Source of the DNA: Parcubacteria group bacterium | GTDB taxonomy: Bacteria; Patescibacteriota; Minisyncoccia; Moranbacterales; UBA2206 | NCBI GenBank assembly: GCA_041659585.1 | Contig: JBAZXY010000001.1 | Span: forward strand, 1 to 53,408 | Direction: 5' to 3' | DNA: 53,408 nt | Part shown: piece after piece, positions 20,286 to 46,436 of the stretch | How positions within the stretch are numbered: position 1 is the first letter of the stretch | How the letters are laid out: each line of letters begins with the position of its first letter | Program-made: the position numbers and the translations under genes | The notes under the pieces: model-generated | Told to the model about the DNA's origin: nothing | The model's input: only the letters and a program-made list of their open reading frames with translations | Database searches by the model: none

Positions 20286-20915
20286 ATGAAAAAACAGAAA
20301 AAGACAATTAAAAAGAAAGTTGCGAAAAAGCCGGCAAAGAGAAAGGCTGTAGTTGAGAAAACTAAATTGCTTCCTTTGATGCCGAAACCTTTGAAGACTC
20401 CAAAATCTCCAAAGAAAGATAAGGTGTCTGTGCAGGATGTGGCTTTTTTAGAGAAAGCTTTTGAGGGAGATAAGGAGATGACTTTGTTTTTTCTTGCCTA
20501 TCTAAAGCACGATAGAAACGCCAGCAAAGCATATAAGTTTCTTCACCCCGGATGCACTGATCACTCCTCTCGGGTGCTAGGCTCTCGCCAGTTAGCAAAG
20601 GTTAGCATTTCTATGATTTTAGACAGCTATGGGTTGGGAGTGGAGACCTATATCAAAAAGATAAAAGAGGGCTTGGAAGCTGCGAATTATGAAAAGGTGA
20701 GTGTTGGAACAGTGGATAAATTAAAAAATGGAAAAATTAAAAAAGAAACCATCTATAAAATTGTTGAATCTCCCAATCACCAAGTGCAAAAAGCCTATCA
20801 CGAGTCTCTTGGAAAACTTCTAGGAATTGAAGGTAAGAAAGATGACACAGCTCCAAACATATCGGTCCAAGTCAATAATCTAATCAACGATAAAAAAAAC
20901 AAGTATGGCATTTAA
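20286..20915 (+). CDS. Terminase small subunit
   Basis: Basic N-terminus. FFLAYLKHDRNASKAYKFLHP...SSRVLGSRQLAKVSI resembles the Terminase_2-type HTH. Immediately precedes the large terminase. Confidence 0.6.
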   Translation: MKKQKKTIKKKVAKKPAKRKAVVEKTKLLPLMPKPLKTPKSPKKDKVSVQDVAFLEKAFEGDKEMTLFFLAYLKHDRNASKAYKFLHPGCTDHSSRVLGSRQLAKVSISMILDSYGLGVETYIKKIKEGLEAANYEKVSVGTVDKLKNGKIKKETIYKIVESPNHQVQKAYHESLGKLLGIEGKKDDTAPNISVQVNNLINDKKNKYGI

Positions 20916-21741
20916 CTCACAAGGCTACAAAGACGCAATCCAAAAAGAGTTGGCGATTGTGAACAAGGATAAGGTGGAGGTGCCTTTCATGCTCAATCCA
21001 GCCCAAGACCACTTTGTTGGCCAGATGGAAACCTATTTATTAATTGTGATCCTCAAAGCGCGCAAGATGGGATTCTCATCTGTGGCGCTGGCCATTGCAG
21101 TTCTCAAGTTTATCTTTGGCGAGAATGAGCGTTGTGTTTCTATGTCATTTGATGCTGATGCCGCCGGAAAGCAATTAGAGCGTGTGAAGTATTTCCTACG
21201 CTCATTTGAAAGAACTAATAACATCAAGATACCCCTTAAATATAATTCCAAGAAAGAGCTTGTCTATGAAAAGAAAGATGAGAATGGAAATATTGTATGC
21301 GTGAACACATTAAGGATCGGAACGGCTAAGTCAGGAAGTTTCGGACGAGGTGACGACATCACATTTCTCCATCTTACTGAGGTTGCCTTTTGTCCAAGCA
21401 TGGAAGACCTTTTGTCCGGTGTAGGTGAAGCCTGCGTGAATAATGCCCATAAGATATTTGAAACAACAGCTAATGGATATAACGATTTCAAAGAATTCTG
21501 GGATAGAGCGAAGCTAGGATTGAATGGTTACAAAGCTTTATTCTATGGACCACATTGGGAATATGATGAAATCTTTTTGGCTGGCAAACTGCAGACACTC
21601 GGAGAAAGGCTTTTCAAACAAGAATATCCCAAAACAGAAGAAGAGGCGTTCCTTACTTCCGGCGCATGCTATTTTGATATCCTAGTTATTTCAGAGATGT
21701 TAAAGAAAGCGAAAGAGCCAATCATTAATCAATTTTCATAA
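20905..21741 (+). CDS. Terminase large subunit, N-terminal ATPase part (split gene)
   Basis: Walker-A-like ILKARKMGFSS and Walker-B-like ITFLHLTEVAF. Ends at TAA 21739-21741. Confidence 0.65.
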   Translation: MAFNSQGYKDAIQKELAIVNKDKVEVPFMLNPAQDHFVGQMETYLLIVILKARKMGFSSVALAIAVLKFIFGENERCVSMSFDADAAGKQLERVKYFLRSFERTNNIKIPLKYNSKKELVYEKKDENGNIVCVNTLRIGTAKSGSFGRGDDITFLHLTEVAFCPSMEDLLSGVGEACVNNAHKIFETTANGYNDFKEFWDRAKLGLNGYKALFYGPHWEYDEIFLAGKLQTLGERLFKQEYPKTEEEAFLTSGACYFDILVISEMLKKAKEPIINQFS

Positions 21742-21752
21742 TAAAAACAAAG

Positions 21753-22388
21753 ATGTTTAGACAATACAGACAAATTGAAAAAGGTGAGTTCTTTGTGGTA
21801 GCAGTCGATACCTGTTCAGGTGGAGGAGACTTCGGACCAGCGCAATTTCTTTCCAAGACCAAAGTGGATGTTCCATTGGTTTGGCATAGCGATGTAACCA
21901 CCTCAGACTTCATTCCTATTCTGGTGCGAACATTGGAGATGATCTACGACATTACAGGAGTTAAGCCGGTCGTTGCGCTCGAGCGTCAAAACGGAGGGGC
22001 ATTCTTGATGGATAGGTTGGCCGCTATGAATCTACTGGGGAAGTTTATACTATTCATCATGCCTTCAATTGGAAATACTGAACCGGGAGAATCAAAGAGA
22101 TTGGGCTGGGATACAAACCTCGCCACACGTCCAAAAATGCTCCAGGACCTGCAAGGAGCAATGAACAACACACTTATCAAGATTTATGACAAACAAACGC
22201 TCAGCGAGTGCCTATCGTTCGTAATCGTGAAGAATTCCAGTAGTTGGAAAGCTCAAGCCGAAAAGAAGTCTCATGACGACCTTGTAATGGCACTGGCCAT
22301 AGCTTGGCAGATGTATCAGATATGCCAGCCATCAGTTTCAGAGGCTAAGGACTATTCTAAATATGAAAATTATAAACAAGAAGAATAA
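21753..22388 (+). CDS. Terminase large subunit, C-terminal nuclease part (split gene)
   Basis: RNaseH-like nuclease motifs (VAVDTCSGGGD ... HDDLVMALAIAW). Different frame, starting 11 nt after the upstream stop. Confidence 0.65.
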   Translation: MFRQYRQIEKGEFFVVAVDTCSGGGDFGPAQFLSKTKVDVPLVWHSDVTTSDFIPILVRTLEMIYDITGVKPVVALERQNGGAFLMDRLAAMNLLGKFILFIMPSIGNTEPGESKRLGWDTNLATRPKMLQDLQGAMNNTLIKIYDKQTLSECLSFVIVKNSSSWKAQAEKKSHDDLVMALAIAWQMYQICQPSVSEAKDYSKYENYKQEE

Positions 22389-23212: not shown

Positions 23213-23389
23213 ATGATTTCTAGTCAACAAGAAGAGGAGAAAAAAAAGGACGAAGTTTTGCAGCAGATAAATGATGCCCTGGAGAAGGAAAATTGGGGAG
23301 GAAGCTGTGGAAGGTTTGTACTTAAAGTTGTTTTTAACGGAAAATATCAGGTTGAATCAGTATGTGGAAACAAAAAATTTGACAAATAA
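23213..23389 (+). CDS. Small ORF (58 aa)
   Basis: Fills a gap. Below the track cut-off. Confidence 0.3.
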   Translation: MISSQQEEEKKKDEVLQQINDALEKENWGGSCGRFVLKVVFNGKYQVESVCGNKKFDK

Positions 23390-23406
23390 TTTATTTCTGG
23401 TATAAT
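23379..23406 (+). promoter_or_regulatory. Near-consensus promoter (TTGACA-16 nt-TATAAT with TG extension) upstream of the virion module
   Basis: TTGACA at 23379-23384 and TGGTATAAT ending at 23406. Confidence 0.6.
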
Positions 23407-31268: not shown

Positions 31269-31286
31269 ATTTGTCTTTCGCTAAAA

Positions 31287-31308
31287 ATCCCCGGATTGCT
31301 CCGGGGAT
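31287..31308 (-). terminator. Terminator of the antisense cassette
   Basis: 9-bp stem ATCCCCGGA / TCCGGGGAT. The T-run is on the minus strand only. Confidence 0.6.
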
Positions 31309-31348
31309 CGTAGGGGAAGGTAAATGGGAGGTTCTTTGAAAAATTTAA

Positions 31349-31921
31349 TTAAAAAATAACATGAGAATACGCAGTTAACAAGGTGCTTAATATTTTGTTA
31401 CTAGATACGGTTATTTGAATAATAATGAAAATAAAAATGACCATTATGGCTATTGATGATATTTCTCCAATAGTTTCATGCTCTTTTGTTACTACAAAAA
31501 ACATTGAGATTGCATAAAGTATCAAGGCTGTAAACCAAACTACAAGGGAATACTCTAATTCCATTGAATATTGATATGTAGAAAGTCCATATGATTTAGC
31601 TTCATCTAGCTCAGATTTTAGATCATTATTTTCGATTTTTAATGTGTCTAATTGAGACTGTAGGGATGATGAAAATGCTTTGTAATCCGTAGTGTCTTTA
31701 ATTGGCTTGGGAATAATAGTTTTCATTGGAGCAGGCGGAATATACTGGCAACCGCAACTCGGGCTATCCGTACCATCGCAACATGATTGACTCCCCGTAG
31801 AAGTATTGCAACCGCAAACACCTCCATGCCATGAACAGCAACCGGAACCAGCTAGGGAAAATGAAGGCCAATAAATTATGAGAAATGCAAAAAGCGTTAC
31901 GAGTAATTTCTGGGTTTTCAT
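31349..31921 (-). CDS. Secreted/membrane-anchored Cys-rich protein (signal peptide, Cys cluster, coiled coil, 2 C-terminal TMs)
   Basis: SP ...SFSLAGS, then GCCSWHGGVCGCNTSTGSQSCCDGTDSPSCGC, a Pro-rich linker, heptad region and hydrophobic tail. Confidence 0.6.
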   Translation of the reverse strand: MKTQKLLVTLFAFLIIYWPSFSLAGSGCCSWHGGVCGCNTSTGSQSCCDGTDSPSCGCQYIPPAPMKTIIPKPIKDTTDYKAFSSSLQSQLDTLKIENNDLKSELDEAKSYGLSTYQYSMELEYSLVVWFTALILYAISMFFVVTKEHETIGEISSIAIMVIFIFIIIQITVSSNKILSTLLTAYSHVIF

Positions 31922-31940
31922 AAGAAGTTAAACTTTATGA

Positions 31941-32126
31941 TTAAGATTTTTTAAAAACGAATTTTCGAACAAATGTATAGGAAAGATAGATAAAAAATAA
32001 GGTTAACGCGAAATAGAAGAGCTGCGCCACAACAAATCCCCAGTTGATTTGATTGGGAGTAAAAAAAGCCCAAATCAAAAATAAGGAGAAAAGTGAAAAA
32101 ATTAAAGTTTTAACAAATATATTCAT
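31941..32126 (-). CDS. Small 2-TM membrane protein
   Basis: 61 aa, Phe/Leu-rich. First gene after the minus-strand consensus promoter. Confidence 0.5.
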   Translation of the reverse strand: MNIFVKTLIFSLFSLFLIWAFFTPNQINWGFVVAQLFYFALTLFFIYLSYTFVRKFVFKKS

Positions 32127-32145
32127 AACAATAAAGTAACACTAA

Positions 32146-32174
32146 ATTATATATTAATCAAATTAATTTGTCAA
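32146..32174 (-). promoter_or_regulatory. Perfect consensus promoter on the minus strand (TTGACA-17 nt-TATAAT) driving the antisense cassette
   Basis: Minus-strand TTGACA is at 32174-32169 and TATAAT at 32151-32146. Confidence 0.65.
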
Positions 32175-33454: not shown

Positions 33455-33534
33455 TTAAAATCTAAATAATTAACTTGCGCCCCCTGTTTCTTGCCTTTCT
33501 CGCAAGTTGGGCAAGGAGTAGGGGGGAAAATAAT

Positions 33535-33981
33535 ATGTCAAAAGGAATGTTTGGAAAGCATCACTCCGAGGAAACCAAAATAAAAATGAGTTTGTCGCAA
33601 AAAGGAAGAAAATTAACCGAGGAAACCAAAAGGAAAATAAGCGAAGCGCATAAGGGTAAAACAGCTTGGAATAAAGGGAAAATCGGATGCTACAAACTCA
33701 GTGAAGAAACTAAAAATAAAATAAGAAAAAATAGCATAACAGGAAGCAAAAATCATTTATGGAAGGGTGACCATGTTGGATACGATGCATTGCATGACTG
33801 GATTAGAAGAATAAAGGGGAAAGCAAAAAAGTGCGAACATTGTGGAAATACTAGCGCCAAAAGATACGAGTGGTCAAATATAGATCATAAATATCGAAGA
33901 AATGTAGATGACTTTATAGAATTATGCGTTAATTGCCACAGAAAATATCATAAGGCTAATAATTTAACAAAAAGAAATTAA
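33535..33981 (+). CDS. HNH homing endonuclease with NUMOD3-like repeats
   Basis: Repeats HSEETKIKMS, LTEETKRKISEAHKG and LSEETKNKIRKN. C-terminal part is CEHCG...HKYRRNVDDFIELCVNCHRKYH. ATG at 33535 preferred. Confidence 0.7.
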   Translation: MSKGMFGKHHSEETKIKMSLSQKGRKLTEETKRKISEAHKGKTAWNKGKIGCYKLSEETKNKIRKNSITGSKNHLWKGDHVGYDALHDWIRRIKGKAKKCEHCGNTSAKRYEWSNIDHKYRRNVDDFIELCVNCHRKYHKANNLTKRN

Positions 33982-42700: not shown

Positions 42701-42970
42701 ATGGAAGAAAACTGCAAAACAGACCACGACGCCGTAGTCACCCTAGTAGCTGTGGTGAAAAATCTTAAAGAGGGACAGGACAAATTTCACGTCGAGATGA
42801 AAGACTCTTTCAAGGACTTGAAGGATAATTTTGCAGTAACTCTGGCCAATCATGAGGAGAGAATAGTCAGGTTGGAAACTTCTAAAACTAAGCAGACTGT
42901 ATTGATGAGCATCGGAATTTCAATTATGGGAGTCCTGGTCGGATTGATGGTTTATCACATCGCCAAATAA
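42701..42970 (+). CDS. Small protein with a single C-terminal TM (holin/lysis-accessory candidate)
   Basis: Helical N-terminal part followed by TVLMSIGISIMGVLVGLMVYHI. Adjacent to the peptidase. Confidence 0.3.
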   Translation: MEENCKTDHDAVVTLVAVVKNLKEGQDKFHVEMKDSFKDLKDNFAVTLANHEERIVRLETSKTKQTVLMSIGISIMGVLVGLMVYHIAK

Positions 42971-42987
42971 TTTGTAAGAACAAAACT

Positions 42988-43728
42988 ATGTATCATCGAT
43001 TCGGACATGCTCAAGCTCACTTTGTGAAATTGGGCGACAAAGTGAAGAAAGGGCAAAAAATCCTGACTGTTGGCACGGGCAATGGCCAGTGGAGCGCGCA
43101 TTGTCATTATGACTGCCCGCAGAGGAAATTGAACTCCTGGACCAGCTATGTTTTTGGATGGACTAGTTCGGAAGTGAAAGGCTCCTATGCTGACCCGACA
43201 AAAAACATCAAGACGGTGATGCCGGGATATGATCACATGGGTTATGGCTATTTGCAGAGCGCTAATTATGGCACGCTGAAAGCTCCTAAGTGGTGCTATC
43301 ACCCGGGAGTGGACTTGAATGGCAAGGGGGCCGGCAACGCCGATTTGGGCGCTCCCATATATTCTCCTTGTGACGGCGTGGTGGTCTATGACTTTGACGA
43401 CGGAAAAGCTTTGGACGGGGGATGGGGGAGATTGCTGGTTATTGAGGAGACCGTTGCGAAAGTGATAGAAACTACCGCGAAAGTGAAAACCGAACAAGCG
43501 CCGCAAATCACCATCGCTCCCAACGTGGATGAAATTGTGGCTATCCCGGTGCGCGTGGAGCAGCCGGCTGCCAAAGTGGACGTCATTGAGCAGCAGGTGG
43601 AAGAAATCCGCCAGGCGGAAGAGGTGCAGACGGAAACCGCCCCGGCGGAAAATAATATCTTGCAGATAGTTTTCAATTTAGTAGGGGATTTAATCATTAA
43701 AATAATAAACATATGGAAAAAGCGATAG
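42988..43728 (+). CDS. M23-family peptidase (endolysin candidate) with permuted motif order
   Basis: HxH-containing block (VKLGDKVKKGQKILTVGTGNGQWSAHCHYD) at the N-terminus. HxxxD block (YHPGVDL...GAPIYSPCDGVV) lies downstream. Confidence 0.55.
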   Translation: MYHRFGHAQAHFVKLGDKVKKGQKILTVGTGNGQWSAHCHYDCPQRKLNSWTSYVFGWTSSEVKGSYADPTKNIKTVMPGYDHMGYGYLQSANYGTLKAPKWCYHPGVDLNGKGAGNADLGAPIYSPCDGVVVYDFDDGKALDGGWGRLLVIEETVAKVIETTAKVKTEQAPQITIAPNVDEIVAIPVRVEQPAAKVDVIEQQVEEIRQAEEVQTETAPAENNILQIVFNLVGDLIIKIINIWKKR

Positions 43729-43862
43729 AAACAATGCTGGCAGTGTCAGTGGTGCTTTCCACTATCGGCGGCACCCTGGTGACCACTGGTAAAATTTGGG
43801 AGGGGTTGGCGTGCATCATGGTGGGAACGGGATTGATTTTTTTACGGGGGATGATAAAGTAG
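43713..43862 (+). CDS. Small 2-TM protein (49 aa; holin-like candidate)
   Basis: MEKAIETMLAVSVVLSTIGGTLVTTGKIWEGLACIMVGTGLIFLRGMIK. Overlaps the peptidase 3' end. Confidence 0.35.
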   Translation: MEKAIETMLAVSVVLSTIGGTLVTTGKIWEGLACIMVGTGLIFLRGMIK

Positions 43863-44116: not shown

Positions 44117-44153
44117 GTTCATTAAAATAAAAAACTTTCAAAATATTAAACTG

Positions 44154-44237
44154 TGGACCTGATGGGACTTGAACCCATAATTCCGGGCAGGAGCTCCTTT
44201 TTCAAAGGAGTGAGGTTAACCATTTTTCTACAGGCCC
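44154..44237 (-). tRNA. tRNA-like gene or pseudo-tRNA (anticodon loop TTGAAAA = GAA; long variable region; weak D arm)
   Basis: Minus strand reads GGGCCTG acceptor paired with CAGGTCC. T arm ATGGG-TTCAAGT-CCCAT. Anticodon stem CTCCT/AGGAG. 15-nt variable region. The D stem does not pair canonically. Confidence 0.4.
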
Positions 44238-45097: not shown

Positions 45098-45970
45098 ATG
45101 TTCAGCAAAAAAATGTGTGAATTTTTTGAACCATTCATAGATTGGTCCATTCGCATGGGAAAAGCAGAGTCAACAATCAAAGAATATCGTAGGATGTTCA
45201 ATGGTCCACTTCAAACAATCTCAAAAATAAAAATAAACAAGTTCAAGATGAAAGATGTTTCCTTTGCAGTGGAGGCAGGACAGCAGTATGGAAAATATGG
45301 AGAAGAAAAAGCAGTGATCACGCTGCGGTCACTAATCAGGTTTATTAAGGAAAATGACCATGAATTTCCGATTGATTGGCGTGACATCAAAGGACGGAAG
45401 AATCAGCGCCCTGAGGTGCAATATTTGACCCCTGGCGACATTGAAACGCTCCGAACGACAATAGACACGGATTCGCCCAGCGGACTCCGTACGAGGGCAT
45501 TATTTGAACTTCTACTGCATTCGGGATTGAGGATTGGAGAGGCCATCACGCTAGACATTGCCGACATTGATTATGACAAGATGGAAATGCATATTGTGAA
45601 TTGCAAAAATAAAGTGCATCAAACCGTGTTTCTGACTGACGGGGCTGTGGCATGGCTAAAAAAATATCTGGCGTCAAGACGTGATACAGAACCGTGCCTT
45701 TTTATCTCCGGCGGCGGAAGAAGATTGCTGGCGGTGACAGCGCGTGCTTCACTCACGAAATATGAAAAGATGAGCGGATTGAAAAAACACATTCATTGGC
45801 ATCTTTTGCGAAAAACCTTTGTCACCAATCTGCTTTTCGGGGGAGTGGACATCAAGACCACGCAACATTTGGCGCGGCACACTTCGGAAATCACCACCCT
45901 CCGGCACTACGCGGCCATCAATCACCAAGAGGAAAGATTGCTTTTGACTAATGTCATGGCCAATGTTTAG
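45098..45970 (+). CDS. Tyrosine recombinase / phage integrase
   Basis: GLRIGEAITL (box I Arg), HWHLLRKTF (H-x-x-R) and ARHTSEITTLRHY (catalytic Tyr region). Confidence 0.9.
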   Translation: MFSKKMCEFFEPFIDWSIRMGKAESTIKEYRRMFNGPLQTISKIKINKFKMKDVSFAVEAGQQYGKYGEEKAVITLRSLIRFIKENDHEFPIDWRDIKGRKNQRPEVQYLTPGDIETLRTTIDTDSPSGLRTRALFELLLHSGLRIGEAITLDIADIDYDKMEMHIVNCKNKVHQTVFLTDGAVAWLKKYLASRRDTEPCLFISGGGRRLLAVTARASLTKYEKMSGLKKHIHWHLLRKTFVTNLLFGGVDIKTTQHLARHTSEITTLRHYAAINHQEERLLLTNVMANV

Positions 45971-46222: not shown

Positions 46223-46356
46223 GTACTTAGTAGTTTGAAAACAGAATAAAAATGAAATGTTTTGCATCTATCTTTTTGCCGCTGATTAATTCGGCTCTAA
46301 AGAAATTGATGCAAGATACTTTCGATTAGATTTATAAATTTCATTCTCTCCTCAAA

Positions 46357-46382
46357 TTAGCACTCGACTTGACAGAGCGATA
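46357..46382 (+). promoter_or_regulatory. CIRCE-like element with degenerate right arm (putative attR core)
   Basis: TTAGCACTC-GACTTGACA-GAGCGATA. Near-identical to 14149-14175. Confidence 0.5.
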
Positions 46383-46409
46383 TCGGTAAAAACTCATTAG
46401 CTCATCAAA

Positions 46410-46436
46410 TTAGCACTCAGACTTGACGAGTGCTAA
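46410..46436 (+). promoter_or_regulatory. CIRCE operator (HrcA binding site), perfect consensus
   Basis: TTAGCACTC-AGACTTGAC-GAGTGCTAA. Confidence 0.9.

What the first reader, a model, noticed from the sequence alone, without database searches (positions are those of the whole stretch)
31287..32174. Self-contained antisense membrane cassette (a moron) inside the tail module, encoding a Cys-cluster exported protein
These are the only two minus-strand genes in the element. They are bracketed by a perfect TTGACA-17-TATAAT promoter (32174-32146, minus strand) and their own terminator (31308-31287, T-run only on the minus strand).

The first gene encodes a 61-aa two-TM protein.

The second encodes a 190-aa protein with this layout:
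- a signal peptide;
- a dense Cys cluster, GCCSWHGGVCGCNTSTGSQSCCDGTDSPSCGC (11 Cys in 32 residues);
- a Pro-rich linker;
- a coiled coil;
- two C-terminal TMs.

A promoter-gene-terminator unit in opposite orientation is the hallmark of lysogen-expressed accessory genes such as superinfection exclusion, envelope modification or defence. I cannot assign either protein to a known system.
Basis: partly seen in the sequence, partly recalled or inferred. Interest (0 to 1): 0.65.

Follow-up and report, generated by a model that had tools for sequence, protein, structure and literature searches.

The report
Prophage surface-protein cassette with Dis2-like knot
A prophage in an uncultured Candidatus Moranbacteria (CPR) bacterium carries a small backward-facing two-gene unit that probably puts a membrane-anchored, disulfide-knotted protein on the lysogen's surface; its knot is the same domain as the uncharacterised Legionella secretion-system subunit Dis2 and E. 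coli YdcA.

Summary
Two minus-strand ORFs (61 aa and 190 aa) sit between a perfect TTGACA-17-TATAAT promoter and a one-way hairpin terminator. One detail is wrong: the 32-residue motif has 8 cysteines, not 11.

The element is a 32.2-kb prophage of a Candidatus Moranbacteria genome. A near-identical genome has the empty site, and the att core is the CIRCE operator upstream of hrcA.

The moron reading is largely supported. The unit is AT-rich, antisense to the virion genes, and uses a host-type promoter. It occupies the same position in at least three sister phages.

New findings:
- The Cys cluster is a Dis2 (Lpg0823)-like disulfide knot. The match to the Legionella Dot/Icm outer-membrane-cap subunit has profile E = 3.7e-18. 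E. coli YdcA is a distant relative. The domain occurs in at least 319 species and 37 viral contigs.
- Sister phages start the cassette with a 127-149 aa membrane-anchored type I signal peptidase, which this prophage lacks.
- The 61-aa protein has no database homologue. It resembles only one 85-aa partner protein, in a viral contig.
- In two Firmicute-like prophages, proteins of the same architecture lie between the cI-like repressor and the recombinase.

Most likely function: a lysogen-expressed surface protein, probably for superinfection exclusion. This is inferred, not shown.

The parts
32146..32174 (-). Host-type sigma-70 promoter TTGACA-17-TATAAT at the head of the cassette.
   Evidence: It matches 12 of 12. 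It is one of 3 perfect matches in the window against 0.06 expected. The homologous promoter, including its spacer TTGATTA, is conserved in L001, L006 and L010.
31941..32126 (-). 61-aa two-TM protein (W61), an orphan. It may be a remnant or fusion of the signal-peptidase membrane anchor and a small 2-TM partner protein.
   Evidence: ORF. Two hydrophobic segments. No homologue found. It resembles the 85-aa 2-TM protein of L015 (z = 5.7, 0 of 500 shuffles) and the N-terminus of the L010 S26 peptidase (z = 2.9). Its coding strand is 48% T.
31349..31921 (-). 190-aa exported, membrane-anchored protein (W190).
   Evidence: ORF. 21 homologues found. AlphaFold2 model.
31850..31921 (-). Signal peptide, residues 1-24, with an SLA/GS type I cleavage-type site.
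   Evidence: Hydropathy. The alignment has an invariant Ala24. Its codons are conserved at the nucleotide level among sister phages.
31748..31843 (-). Dis2/Lpg0823-like disulfide-knot domain, residues 27-58, with 8 Cys.
   Evidence: Profile search against PDB: 7muc_AN, E = 3.7e-18, with both Dis2 lobes matched. It is the top Foldseek hit, prob 0.98. Three short strands with pLDDT about 85. The extra Cys pair co-varies.
31559..31747 (-). Pro-rich linker (residues 59-79) and helical stalk (residues 80-121).
   Evidence: AlphaFold2 predicts one helix over residues 80-147.
31388..31558 (-). Two C-terminal transmembrane helices, at about residues 122-146 and 156-178. Most homologues have one TM plus a short basic tail.
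   Evidence: Hydropathy and alignment.
31283..31309 (-). Intrinsic terminator for the minus strand only.
   Evidence: 10-bp GC-rich stem followed by U5, -19.7 kcal/mol, z = -3.4.
14146..14174 (.). attL of the 32.2-kb prophage. The core is a CIRCE-like inverted repeat.
   Evidence: Comparison with the empty site in L132/L133 and the repeat family D1.
46407..46435 (.). attR of the prophage, at the CIRCE operator upstream of hrcA.
45098..45970 (+). Tyrosine integrase of the prophage.
   Evidence: Pfam Phage_integrase, E = 2e-32.
42701..43862 (+). Separate lysis-like module: an 89-aa protein with a C-terminal TM, an M23 peptidase, and a 49-aa 2-TM protein. It is context that argues against a lysis role for the cassette.

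Best explanation
The cassette is an independently transcribed accessory unit of a temperate phage integrated in a Candidatus Moranbacteria chromosome.

Proposed mechanism:
1. Host sigma-70 RNA polymerase starts at the consensus promoter, reads against the direction of the virion genes, and stops at the cassette's own terminator. The two proteins can therefore be made while the late genes are silent, that is, in the lysogen.
2. W190 is exported by Sec, and its signal peptide is cut after SLA. Sister phages bring their own mini type I signal peptidase for this step. This prophage has lost it and must rely on the host enzyme.
3. The mature protein stays anchored in the cytoplasmic membrane by its C-terminal helices.
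4. It holds a 32-residue knot, probably with four disulfides and of the Dis2 type, away from the membrane on a Pro-rich linker and a helical stalk of about 45 residues.
5. By analogy with Dis2, which docks as a peripheral subunit on the Legionella Dot/Icm outer-membrane cap, the knot is most likely a docking module. It would bind a component of the cell envelope.

The most likely benefit to the phage is superinfection exclusion or another change of the lysogen's surface. W61 is a small two-TM partner of uncertain standing.

Shown: the anatomy, the prophage status, conservation of the cassette, and homology of the domain. Inferred: timing of expression, topology, the binding role and the exclusion phenotype.
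For: The element is a prophage.
- A genome with an identical CysRS protein has CorA-YidD-145aa-HrcA with no insert.
- The flanks are 99.3-99.5% identical, and a repeated 29-nt core marks both junctions.
- An integrase lies at 45098-45970.
- The host is Candidatus Moranbacteria: CysRS is 69-79% identical to MAGs named Moranbacteria or Moraniibacteriota, and 84% to an unnamed one.

It is an autonomous transcription unit.
- The promoter is perfect.
- The host uses this promoter type: 13 TTGACA-N16-18-TAnnnT sites against 1.7 expected, mostly upstream of host genes.
- It has its own one-way terminator.
- It is AT-rich compared with its neighbours.

The cassette is conserved.
- Sister phage contigs L001/2, L006-9 and L010 carry an antisense cassette between the capsid module and the 354-418 aa plus 1149-1733 aa virion genes.
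- L019-21 show the same arrangement in my own greedy ORF calls.
- Near-consensus promoters head the cassettes of L001, L006 and L010.
- The first 59 residues of the Cys protein are 75-81% identical, while the capsid and portal proteins are 41-62% identical.

The domain is identified.
- The profile of 22 homologues hits Dis2 (7muc_AN) at E = 3.7e-18.
- It is the Foldseek top hit, with 41% identity over 34 columns and rmsd 1.5 A.
- Dis2 has two similar lobes held by five disulfides near the outer membrane (PMC8486379).
- The 6-Cys core plus a co-varying extra pair fits a disulfide fold.

Lysogeny context in other phages: in L022 and L023, a protein with the layout signal, knot, coiled coil and TM lies on the same strand between an HTH+S24 repressor and a recombinase or integrase.

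A lysis role is unlikely, because a separate M23 peptidase with small TM proteins lies at 42.7-43.9 kb on the + strand.
Against: - There are no expression data. The late operon also has a perfect sigma-70-type promoter (23379-23406), so a consensus promoter alone does not prove expression in the lysogen. The conserved promoter spacer could be an operator.
- No homologue has a known function. Dis2 is dispensable in Legionella (PMC12716638) and YdcA is uncharacterised.
- The window's cassette lacks the signal peptidase found in its sisters. W190 also carries an unusual C-terminal extension, so this copy might be decaying.
- Outside this phage lineage, the genes next to the domain are heterogeneous.
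Confidence: 0.45

Rival explanations
1. Lysogenic conversion without exclusion. The anchored knot acts as an adhesin or surface-docking protein. It would change how the ultra-small CPR cell attaches to partners or surfaces, or how an envelope machine such as type IV pili works.
For: The anatomy is the same as in the best explanation. Elsewhere the domain is fused to extracellular modules: FN3-like domains, Excalibur, thermonuclease and repeats. Dis2 is an accessory part of an envelope-spanning machine.
Against: No binding partner is known. The window has no T4SS genes among the annotated ORFs. Whether Moranbacteria are episymbionts is not known from this window.
Confidence: 0.2
2. A decaying cassette. 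The functional unit is the three-gene module of the sister phages (mini signal peptidase, small TM protein, Cys protein). The window's copy has lost the peptidase by deletion and is on its way to becoming a pseudo-operon.
For: No S26 coding sequence is found anywhere in the window. The N-terminus of W61 resembles an S26 membrane anchor (z = 2.9) and the rest resembles a partner protein (z = 5.7), as expected for a deletion fusion. W61 has no database homologue, and not even a self-hit came back. W190 has an extra C-terminal TM and tail.
Against: The promoter is perfect, the terminator is intact and both ORFs are open. All invariant residues of the domain are kept in W190. L021 and L020 also lack an S26 gene yet keep the Cys gene.
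Confidence: 0.13
3. A lysis or release accessory. W61 would be a class II-like holin. W190 would be a spanin-like envelope-spanning protein, with a membrane anchor, a coiled coil and a distal Cys domain.
For: W61 is small, has two TMs and a basic C-terminus. W190 has a TM, a helical stalk and a Cys-rich head, which loosely recalls i-spanins and u-spanins.
Against: The cassette is antisense to the late genes and 11 kb from the M23 peptidase module, which has its own small TM proteins. There is no lipobox; the cleavage site is of the AXA type in all homologues. As far as is known from the literature, the host is a CPR bacterium without an outer membrane. L022/L023 homologues sit beside the repressor, not beside lysis genes. 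PHROGs gives no holin or spanin hit.
Confidence: 0.07
4. The main role is regulatory. Antisense transcription across the gap between the tail-tube-like genes and the ejection-protein genes would interfere with read-through of the late operon in lysogens. The ORFs would be secondary.
For: The unit faces the late operon head-on. The promoter, its spacer and the first 60 nt of the Cys gene are conserved at the nucleotide level well beyond what the protein requires.
Against: The Cys domain is conserved at the protein level with many synonymous changes, which indicates selection on the protein. The domain family is widespread as a protein.
Confidence: 0.07
5. A secreted disulfide-rich toxin or bacteriocin-like peptide with a small TM immunity protein and a dedicated peptidase.
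For: Many relatives are small secreted precursors with the knot at the very C-terminus, preceded by basic residues. Small TM proteins are frequent neighbours, in 30 of 116 loci. A dedicated peptidase is present in the sister phages.
Against: W190 and its closest relatives are membrane-anchored and cannot diffuse. Dis2 is a structural subunit. There is no match to bacteriocin families in Pfam or NCBIfam.
Confidence: 0.05

Closest known systems
[quoted passage not shown]
   Same: The Cys-knot domain is the same. The profile E-value is 3.7e-18 and both Dis2 lobes match W190 residues 27-60. It is the best Foldseek hit. Both are Sec-exported, disulfide-bonded and close to a membrane.
   Different: Dis2 is a soluble 124-aa protein with two tandem lobes, and it sits in a T4SS of a diderm. 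W190 has one lobe, a stalk and a membrane anchor, is encoded by a prophage of a CPR bacterium, and has no T4SS genes nearby. Dis2 lobe 1 lacks the His and Asp that are invariant in the phage family. The function of Dis2 is unknown, and it is dispensable.
E. coli YdcA (b1419; NCBIfam PRK10040), a 57-aa periplasmic protein of unknown function
   Same: It has a signal peptide followed directly by a related Cys motif, CSGSKGGISHC...CNDGSISAS..C. hhalign gives prob 89.6%, E = 1.9e-6. NCBIfam gives weak hits for three family members.
   Different: YdcA is much shorter and has 4 Cys. It has no stalk or anchor, is chromosomal, and lacks the CCSxHGG signature.
Superinfection-exclusion proteins of temperate phages, such as Ltp of Streptococcus phage TP-J34, Sie2009 of Lactococcus phage Tuc2009 and SieA of P22 (named from general knowledge)
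   Same: They are made in the lysogen from their own promoter. They are anchored at the outer face of the cytoplasmic membrane and small. Homologues of W190 in L022/L023 occupy the classical repressor-integrase position of sie/ltp genes.
   Different: There is no sequence or fold similarity. The window's cassette lies in the virion-gene region, not in the lysogeny module. No phenotype is known.
Dedicated signal-peptidase and cargo pairs, such as SipW-TasA/TapA of Bacillus subtilis and SipA/LepA with pilins in Streptococcus (named from general knowledge)
   Same: Sister phages place a membrane-anchored S26 peptidase directly upstream of a cargo with a strongly conserved signal peptide.
   Different: The phage enzymes are minimal (127-149 aa) bacterial-type Ser/Lys peptidases. 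The window itself has none. Cleavage of the Cys protein by them is untested.
Classical morons of lambdoid phages, such as bor and lom (named from general knowledge)
   Same: A promoter-gene-terminator unit among late genes, with different base composition, encoding envelope proteins.
   Different: This unit is conserved at one position throughout a phage lineage rather than sporadic. It is transcribed antisense to the late genes.

Membership tests
Moron / lysogenic-conversion cassette | Lies inside an integrated temperate phage. | tested here: met
   Empty site in L132/L133, att repeats and an integrase.
Moron / lysogenic-conversion cassette | Has its own promoter and terminator, independent of the flanking operon. 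| tested here: met
   Perfect promoter, one-way terminator, and antisense orientation. These are consensus matches only; function was not tested.
Moron / lysogenic-conversion cassette | Base composition differs from the neighbouring genes. | tested here: met
   GC is 0.28 for W61 and 0.35 for W190, against 0.47 for the 726-aa gene and 0.51 for the 30-31 kb block.
Moron / lysogenic-conversion cassette | Present in some relatives and absent in others ('more DNA'). | tested here: not met
   All sister phages examined carry a cassette at the same place. Only its content varies.
Moron / lysogenic-conversion cassette | Expressed from the repressed prophage. | not testable with these tools
   No transcriptome data are at hand.
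Dis2 (Lpg0823)-like Cys-knot domain | Significant sequence match to the Dis2 lobes. | tested here: met
   E = 3.7e-18 for the whole chain, 5.4e-11 and 7.2e-6 for the two lobes.
Dis2 (Lpg0823)-like Cys-knot domain | Conserved Cys framework: CC...C...C...C.C. | tested here: met
   Invariant C28, C29, C47 and C56; nearly invariant C38. W190 has these, plus C58 and the co-varying extra pair C36/C48.
Dis2 (Lpg0823)-like Cys-knot domain | Same fold. | tested here: inconclusive
Dis2 (Lpg0823)-like Cys-knot domain | Part of a type IVB secretion system. | tested here: not met
   No dot/icm-type genes appear among the annotated window ORFs. The host is a CPR bacterium.
Superinfection-exclusion proteins (Sie/Ltp type) | Sequence or profile similarity to known Sie, Ltp or Imm families. 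| tested here: not met
   No hit in Pfam, PHROGs or BFVD. PADLOC was not searched.
Superinfection-exclusion proteins (Sie/Ltp type) | Gene lies in the lysogeny module next to the repressor or integrase. | tested here: not met
   In the window it lies between virion genes. Homologues of the same architecture in L022/L023 do lie between the repressor and the recombinase.
Superinfection-exclusion proteins (Sie/Ltp type) | Blocks adsorption or DNA entry of incoming phage. | not testable with these tools
   Needs an experiment.
Spanin / holin lysis cassette | Adjacent to an endolysin and co-oriented with the late genes. | tested here: not met
   The M23 peptidase module is 11 kb away on the + strand, and the cassette is antisense.
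Spanin / holin lysis cassette | Lipobox in the outer-membrane part (o-spanin or u-spanin). | tested here: not met
   The sites are of the AXA type: SLA/GSGCC, SFA/TSGCC, and so on. The residue at -3 is never Leu-like before Cys.
Type I signal peptidase (S26) with a dedicated cargo | An S26 peptidase gene in the cassette. | tested here: not met
   tblastn with three phage S26 proteins finds nothing in the window. The gene is present in L001, L006, L010 and L019 above the Pfam cut-off, and the L001 protein is above the TIGR02227 cut-off.

The most novel reading that the evidence does not exclude
The window holds a reduced copy of a previously undescribed three-part module of CPR phages: a mini type I signal peptidase, a small TM protein, and an anchored Dis2-type knot. 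This module would remodel or block an envelope-spanning machine of the lysogen. More broadly, the 'Legionellales-specific' Dis2 lobe would be a widespread docking domain, largely carried by mobile elements and used by phages of many phyla to act on the cell envelope.
Probability: 0.25. Interest if true: 0.75.

Novelty: new variant of a known kind. Interest (0 to 1): 0.55.

Why it matters
- It gives a first wider context for Dis2. The Legionella literature treats Dis2 as specific to Legionellales and without structural relatives. Here the same knot turns up in at least 319 species, 37 viral contigs, 565 protein clusters and E. coli YdcA. It often lies in prophages, and sometimes beside the repressor.
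- It documents an integrated, recently mobile prophage of a Candidatus Moranbacteria (CPR) genome, with exact att sites in the CIRCE operator. Experimental handles on CPR-phage biology are scarce.
- A phage-borne mini signal peptidase paired with a cargo whose signal-peptide codons are frozen at the nucleotide level is an unusual arrangement and can be tested.
- If the knot proves to be an envelope-docking or exclusion module, it would name a function for a whole family of small Cys-rich prophage proteins.

Tried and rejected
- DNA similarity to known phages found nothing. A protein search of the phage collection found only two Helicobacter prophage hits to the Cys motif.
- Pfam, PHROGs and NCBIfam gave no meaningful family for either protein. 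The below-threshold hits to LptF_LptG and phrog_20638 lie in the helical and TM part and were disregarded.
- A literature search for the motif string found nothing.
- The homologue search for W61 returned no candidate at all.
- I looked for a general gene neighbourhood of the domain in 115 neighbour proteins. The result was heterogeneous: only 3-4 each of S24, S26, HTH and integrase. The signal-peptidase link is therefore specific to the CPR phage lineage plus L004/5.
- I considered a metal-cluster reading of the Cys motif. I rejected it in favour of disulfides because Dis2 shows five disulfides in density and because the extra Cys pair co-varies.
- I considered that the element might be a lytic T7-like phage because of its gene order. 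I rejected this because the 844-aa ORF is a host P-type ATPase, not an RNA polymerase, and because the element is integrated.
- From memory, I recalled a permuted resemblance to Pfam DUF3761 (CxDGTxS...CSxHGGV). The Pfam scan gave no such hit, so this remains only a lead.
Full report
1. THE OBSERVATION

The region holds two minus-strand ORFs: 31941-32126 (61 aa, W61) and 31349-31921 (190 aa, W190).

- A TTGACA-17-TATAAT promoter lies at 32174-32146 on the minus strand. Only three perfect matches occur in the 53-kb window, against 0.06 expected.
- Forty bases after the W190 stop codon there is a 10-bp GC-rich hairpin followed by U5, at about 31309-31283. It folds at -19.7 kcal/mol with z = -3.4. 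On the + strand the same stem has no T-run after it.
- W190 has an N-terminal hydrophobic signal ending in SLA/GS, the motif GCCSWHGGVCGCNTSTGSQSCCDGTDSPSCGC at residues 27-58, a Pro-rich stretch, one long predicted helix (80-147), a second helix (151-189), and two hydrophobic segments.
- W61 has two hydrophobic segments.

2. WHAT THE ELEMENT IS

The window is not a free phage genome.

- Positions 1-13.1 kb carry host genes: pheA, a sigma-70 factor, a P-type ATPase, L10, cysS and corA.
- Positions 46.6-53 kb carry hrcA-grpE-hsp20-dnaK and others.
- The closest named CysRS relatives are from Candidatus Moranbacteria / Moraniibacteriota MAGs, at 69-79% identity; the best hit from an unnamed MAG is 84% identical.
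- Two other contigs encode the identical CysRS but have CorA-YidD-145aa-HrcA with nothing in between.
- Their flanks are 99.3-99.5% identical to the window, and the alignment breaks at about 14169 and 46408.
- Both junctions carry a 29-nt repeat whose core is TTAGCACTC-N9-GAGTGCTAA, the CIRCE operator of the hrcA operon.
- A tyrosine integrase lies at 45098-45970.

The element is therefore a 32.2-kb prophage that is polymorphic in the population. Its gene order is:

- replication initiator (15228-16106) and terminase pieces (20905-22388);
- a putative portal (611 aa) and scaffold (299 aa), assigned only by position and by similarity to the matching genes of the sister phages, with no family hit;
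- major capsid protein and a 726-aa virion protein;
- the antisense cassette;
- a 428-aa protein, an HNH homing endonuclease and a 1665-aa protein;
- a tail-fibre-like protein;
- a lysis-like group with an M23 peptidase and two small TM proteins.

3. THE CASSETTE IN RELATIVES

W190 has 21 homologues, all from metagenomes. Their genomic contexts are informative.

Three sister phage lineages share the capsid, portal and large virion proteins at 41-62% identity. Each carries an antisense cassette at exactly the same place:

| Locus | Cassette genes |
|---|---|
| L001/2 | 127-aa peptidase, then 164-aa Cys protein |
| L006-9 | 149-aa peptidase, then 61-aa one-TM protein, then 191-aa Cys protein |
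| L010 | 136-aa peptidase, then 235-aa Cys protein |

- The first gene is a membrane-anchored type I signal peptidase. Pfam Peptidase_S26 scores 29-50 bits against a cut-off of 22.9, and the L001 protein scores 49.5 bits on TIGR02227 against a cut-off of 47.
- Viral contigs L019 and L015 also have a mini S26-like gene directly upstream.
- L020 has a membrane-anchored CAP-domain protein there, and L021 has an 81-aa two-TM protein.
- A non-phage element, L004/5, has the Cys protein, a small two-TM protein and a 589-aa S26 peptidase.
- The window has no S26 sequence anywhere.
- Near-consensus promoters head the sister cassettes. A DNA alignment shows the promoters are homologous, including the spacer.

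4. THE 61-AA PROTEIN

- It has no homologue among 5.8 billion proteins, and the search did not even return the protein itself.
- Its N-terminus (MNIFVK plus TM) resembles that of the L010 peptidase (z = 2.9, 4 of 500 shuffles).
- Its whole length resembles the 85-aa two-TM protein that sits between the S26-like gene and the Cys gene in L015 (z = 5.7, 0 of 500 shuffles).
- It may therefore be a genuine small partner protein. It may also be a fusion left by the deletion that removed the peptidase.
- Its coding strand is 48% T, which by itself favours hydrophobic codons.

5. THE CYS DOMAIN

- A profile of the 22 family members matches one solved structure strongly: chain AN of 7MUC/7MUD, at E = 3.7e-18, with both halves of that chain aligned to W190 residues 27-60.
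- The family has a six-Cys core. W190 has two more Cys, and these always appear together in homologues. This fits a fourth disulfide.
- E. coli YdcA is a distant relative.
- The domain is widespread. It occurs in 37 viral contigs, in at least 319 of the species genomes scanned, across Patescibacteria, Bacillota, Pseudomonadota, Desulfobacterota, Bdellovibrionota, Melainabacteria and others, and in 565 clusters at 50% identity.

Three layouts recur:

| Layout | Count | Description |
|---|---|---|
| A | 56 | Small secreted proteins with the knot at the C-terminus |
| B | 25 | Knot directly after the signal peptide, then linker or stalk, then a C-terminal TM, as in W190 |
| Other | 35 | Fusions to FN3-like, Excalibur, thermonuclease and other extracellular modules |

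In two Firmicute-like prophages, a layout-B protein lies on the same strand between an HTH+S24 repressor and a serine recombinase or tyrosine integrase. That is the classical place for genes expressed in lysogens.

6. HOW IT MOST LIKELY WORKS

Shown:
- It is an autonomous, AT-rich, antisense unit with a host-type promoter and its own terminator.
- It sits inside an integrated temperate phage.
- It is conserved in position across a phage lineage.
- It encodes an exported protein with a Dis2-type knot and a membrane anchor.

Inferred:
- Transcription while the late genes are silent.
- Sec export and cleavage after SLA, by the host enzyme here and by the phage's own enzyme in the sisters.
- An N-out topology, with the knot held off the membrane on a linker and helical stalk.
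- A docking role for the knot on an envelope component, by analogy with Dis2.
- Superinfection exclusion as the selective benefit, by analogy with Sie/Ltp-type proteins and the L022/L023 context.

I put about 0.85 on the anatomy, about 0.6 on expression in the lysogen, and about 0.35 on exclusion as the function.

Rivals:
- Surface conversion without exclusion.
- A decaying copy of a three-gene module.
- A lysis accessory. This is unlikely, because a separate M23 module exists, the orientation is wrong and there is no lipobox.
- A purely regulatory antisense transcript.
- A toxin-immunity pair.

7. UNEXPLAINED

- The first 21 codons of the Cys gene are 84-94% identical at the nucleotide level among the four phages, with almost all synonymous sites identical. 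The Cys domain right after is only 63-67% identical (76% between L006 and L010), with many synonymous changes.
- The promoter spacer is conserved too.
- This points to a constraint on the DNA or RNA, such as an operator, an mRNA structure or a recombination joint. I could not resolve which.

8. NOVELTY AND VERDICT

- The kind of thing, a prophage accessory cassette for an envelope protein, is known.
- Three points are not in the papers I could find and read: the protein family's link to Dis2 and YdcA, its breadth in phages, and its pairing with a phage-borne mini signal peptidase in CPR phages.
- I rate it a new variant of a known kind, with interest 0.55.

Noticed in passing
window 14146-14174, 14182-14202, 46354-46382, 46407-46435: The prophage attachment core is the CIRCE operator (TTAGCACTC-N9-GAGTGCTAA) upstream of hrcA-grpE-dnaK. 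Integration leaves CIRCE-like copies at both ends, so it may affect heat-shock regulation.
   Followed up: partly
window 13633-14169: The 145-aa ORF region next to attL is only 81% identical to the allele at the empty site, while the surrounding flanks are 99% identical. The phage may replace the end of this gene on integration.
   Followed up: no
window 33475-33981: An HNH/NUMOD3 homing endonuclease gene sits between the 428-aa and 1665-aa virion genes. The two matching virion genes are directly adjacent in sister phages L001, L006 and L010.
   Followed up: partly
window 20905-21741 and 21753-22388: Two consecutive ORFs match terminase families (phrog_2 large subunit, phrog_24361 terminase). 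This suggests a split or interrupted large-subunit gene.
   Followed up: no
window 14272-14344 and 44153-44237: ARAGORN calls a tRNA-like sequence with a four-base 'tagt' anticodon just inside attL, and a tRNA-Phe on the minus strand near the integrase end of the prophage.
   Followed up: no
window, whole (for example 428, 7782, 8182, 9389, 13172, 46194, 49341): TTGACA-N16-18-TAnnnT sites number 13 against 1.7 expected and lie mostly upstream of host genes, so this Moranbacteria genome uses canonical sigma-70 promoters. A second perfect promoter, at 23379-23406 (+), precedes the portal gene.
   Followed up: partly
window, start regions of about 50 genes: Most host and phage genes lack a Shine-Dalgarno motif and have A-rich leaders. 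The two cassette genes have T-rich leaders instead.
   Followed up: partly
L030, L043, L011, L100, L101, L099, L112, L079: Small secreted proteins with the motif RxDGTYVQPHxRSxPD...GN.NPYTG are frequent same-strand neighbours of the small (type A) Cys-domain genes. In L079 the motif is fused to one. This is a second uncharacterised family that travels with the knot.
   Followed up: no
L004 6080-7849 and L020 5396-5914: A CAP/SCP-like domain recurs next to Cys-protein genes. In L020 it is a membrane-anchored 172-aa protein. In L004 it appears, by eye only (Pfam reports only Peptidase_S26 for that protein), as the C-terminal part of the 589-aa signal peptidase.
   Followed up: partly
L121, L128, L013 (P0015): The knot domain is fused to thermonuclease-like sequences (assigned by eye) in L121 and L128. 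It is fused to Excalibur Ca-binding motifs in L128 (by eye) and in L013/P0015 (so named by NCBI).
   Followed up: no
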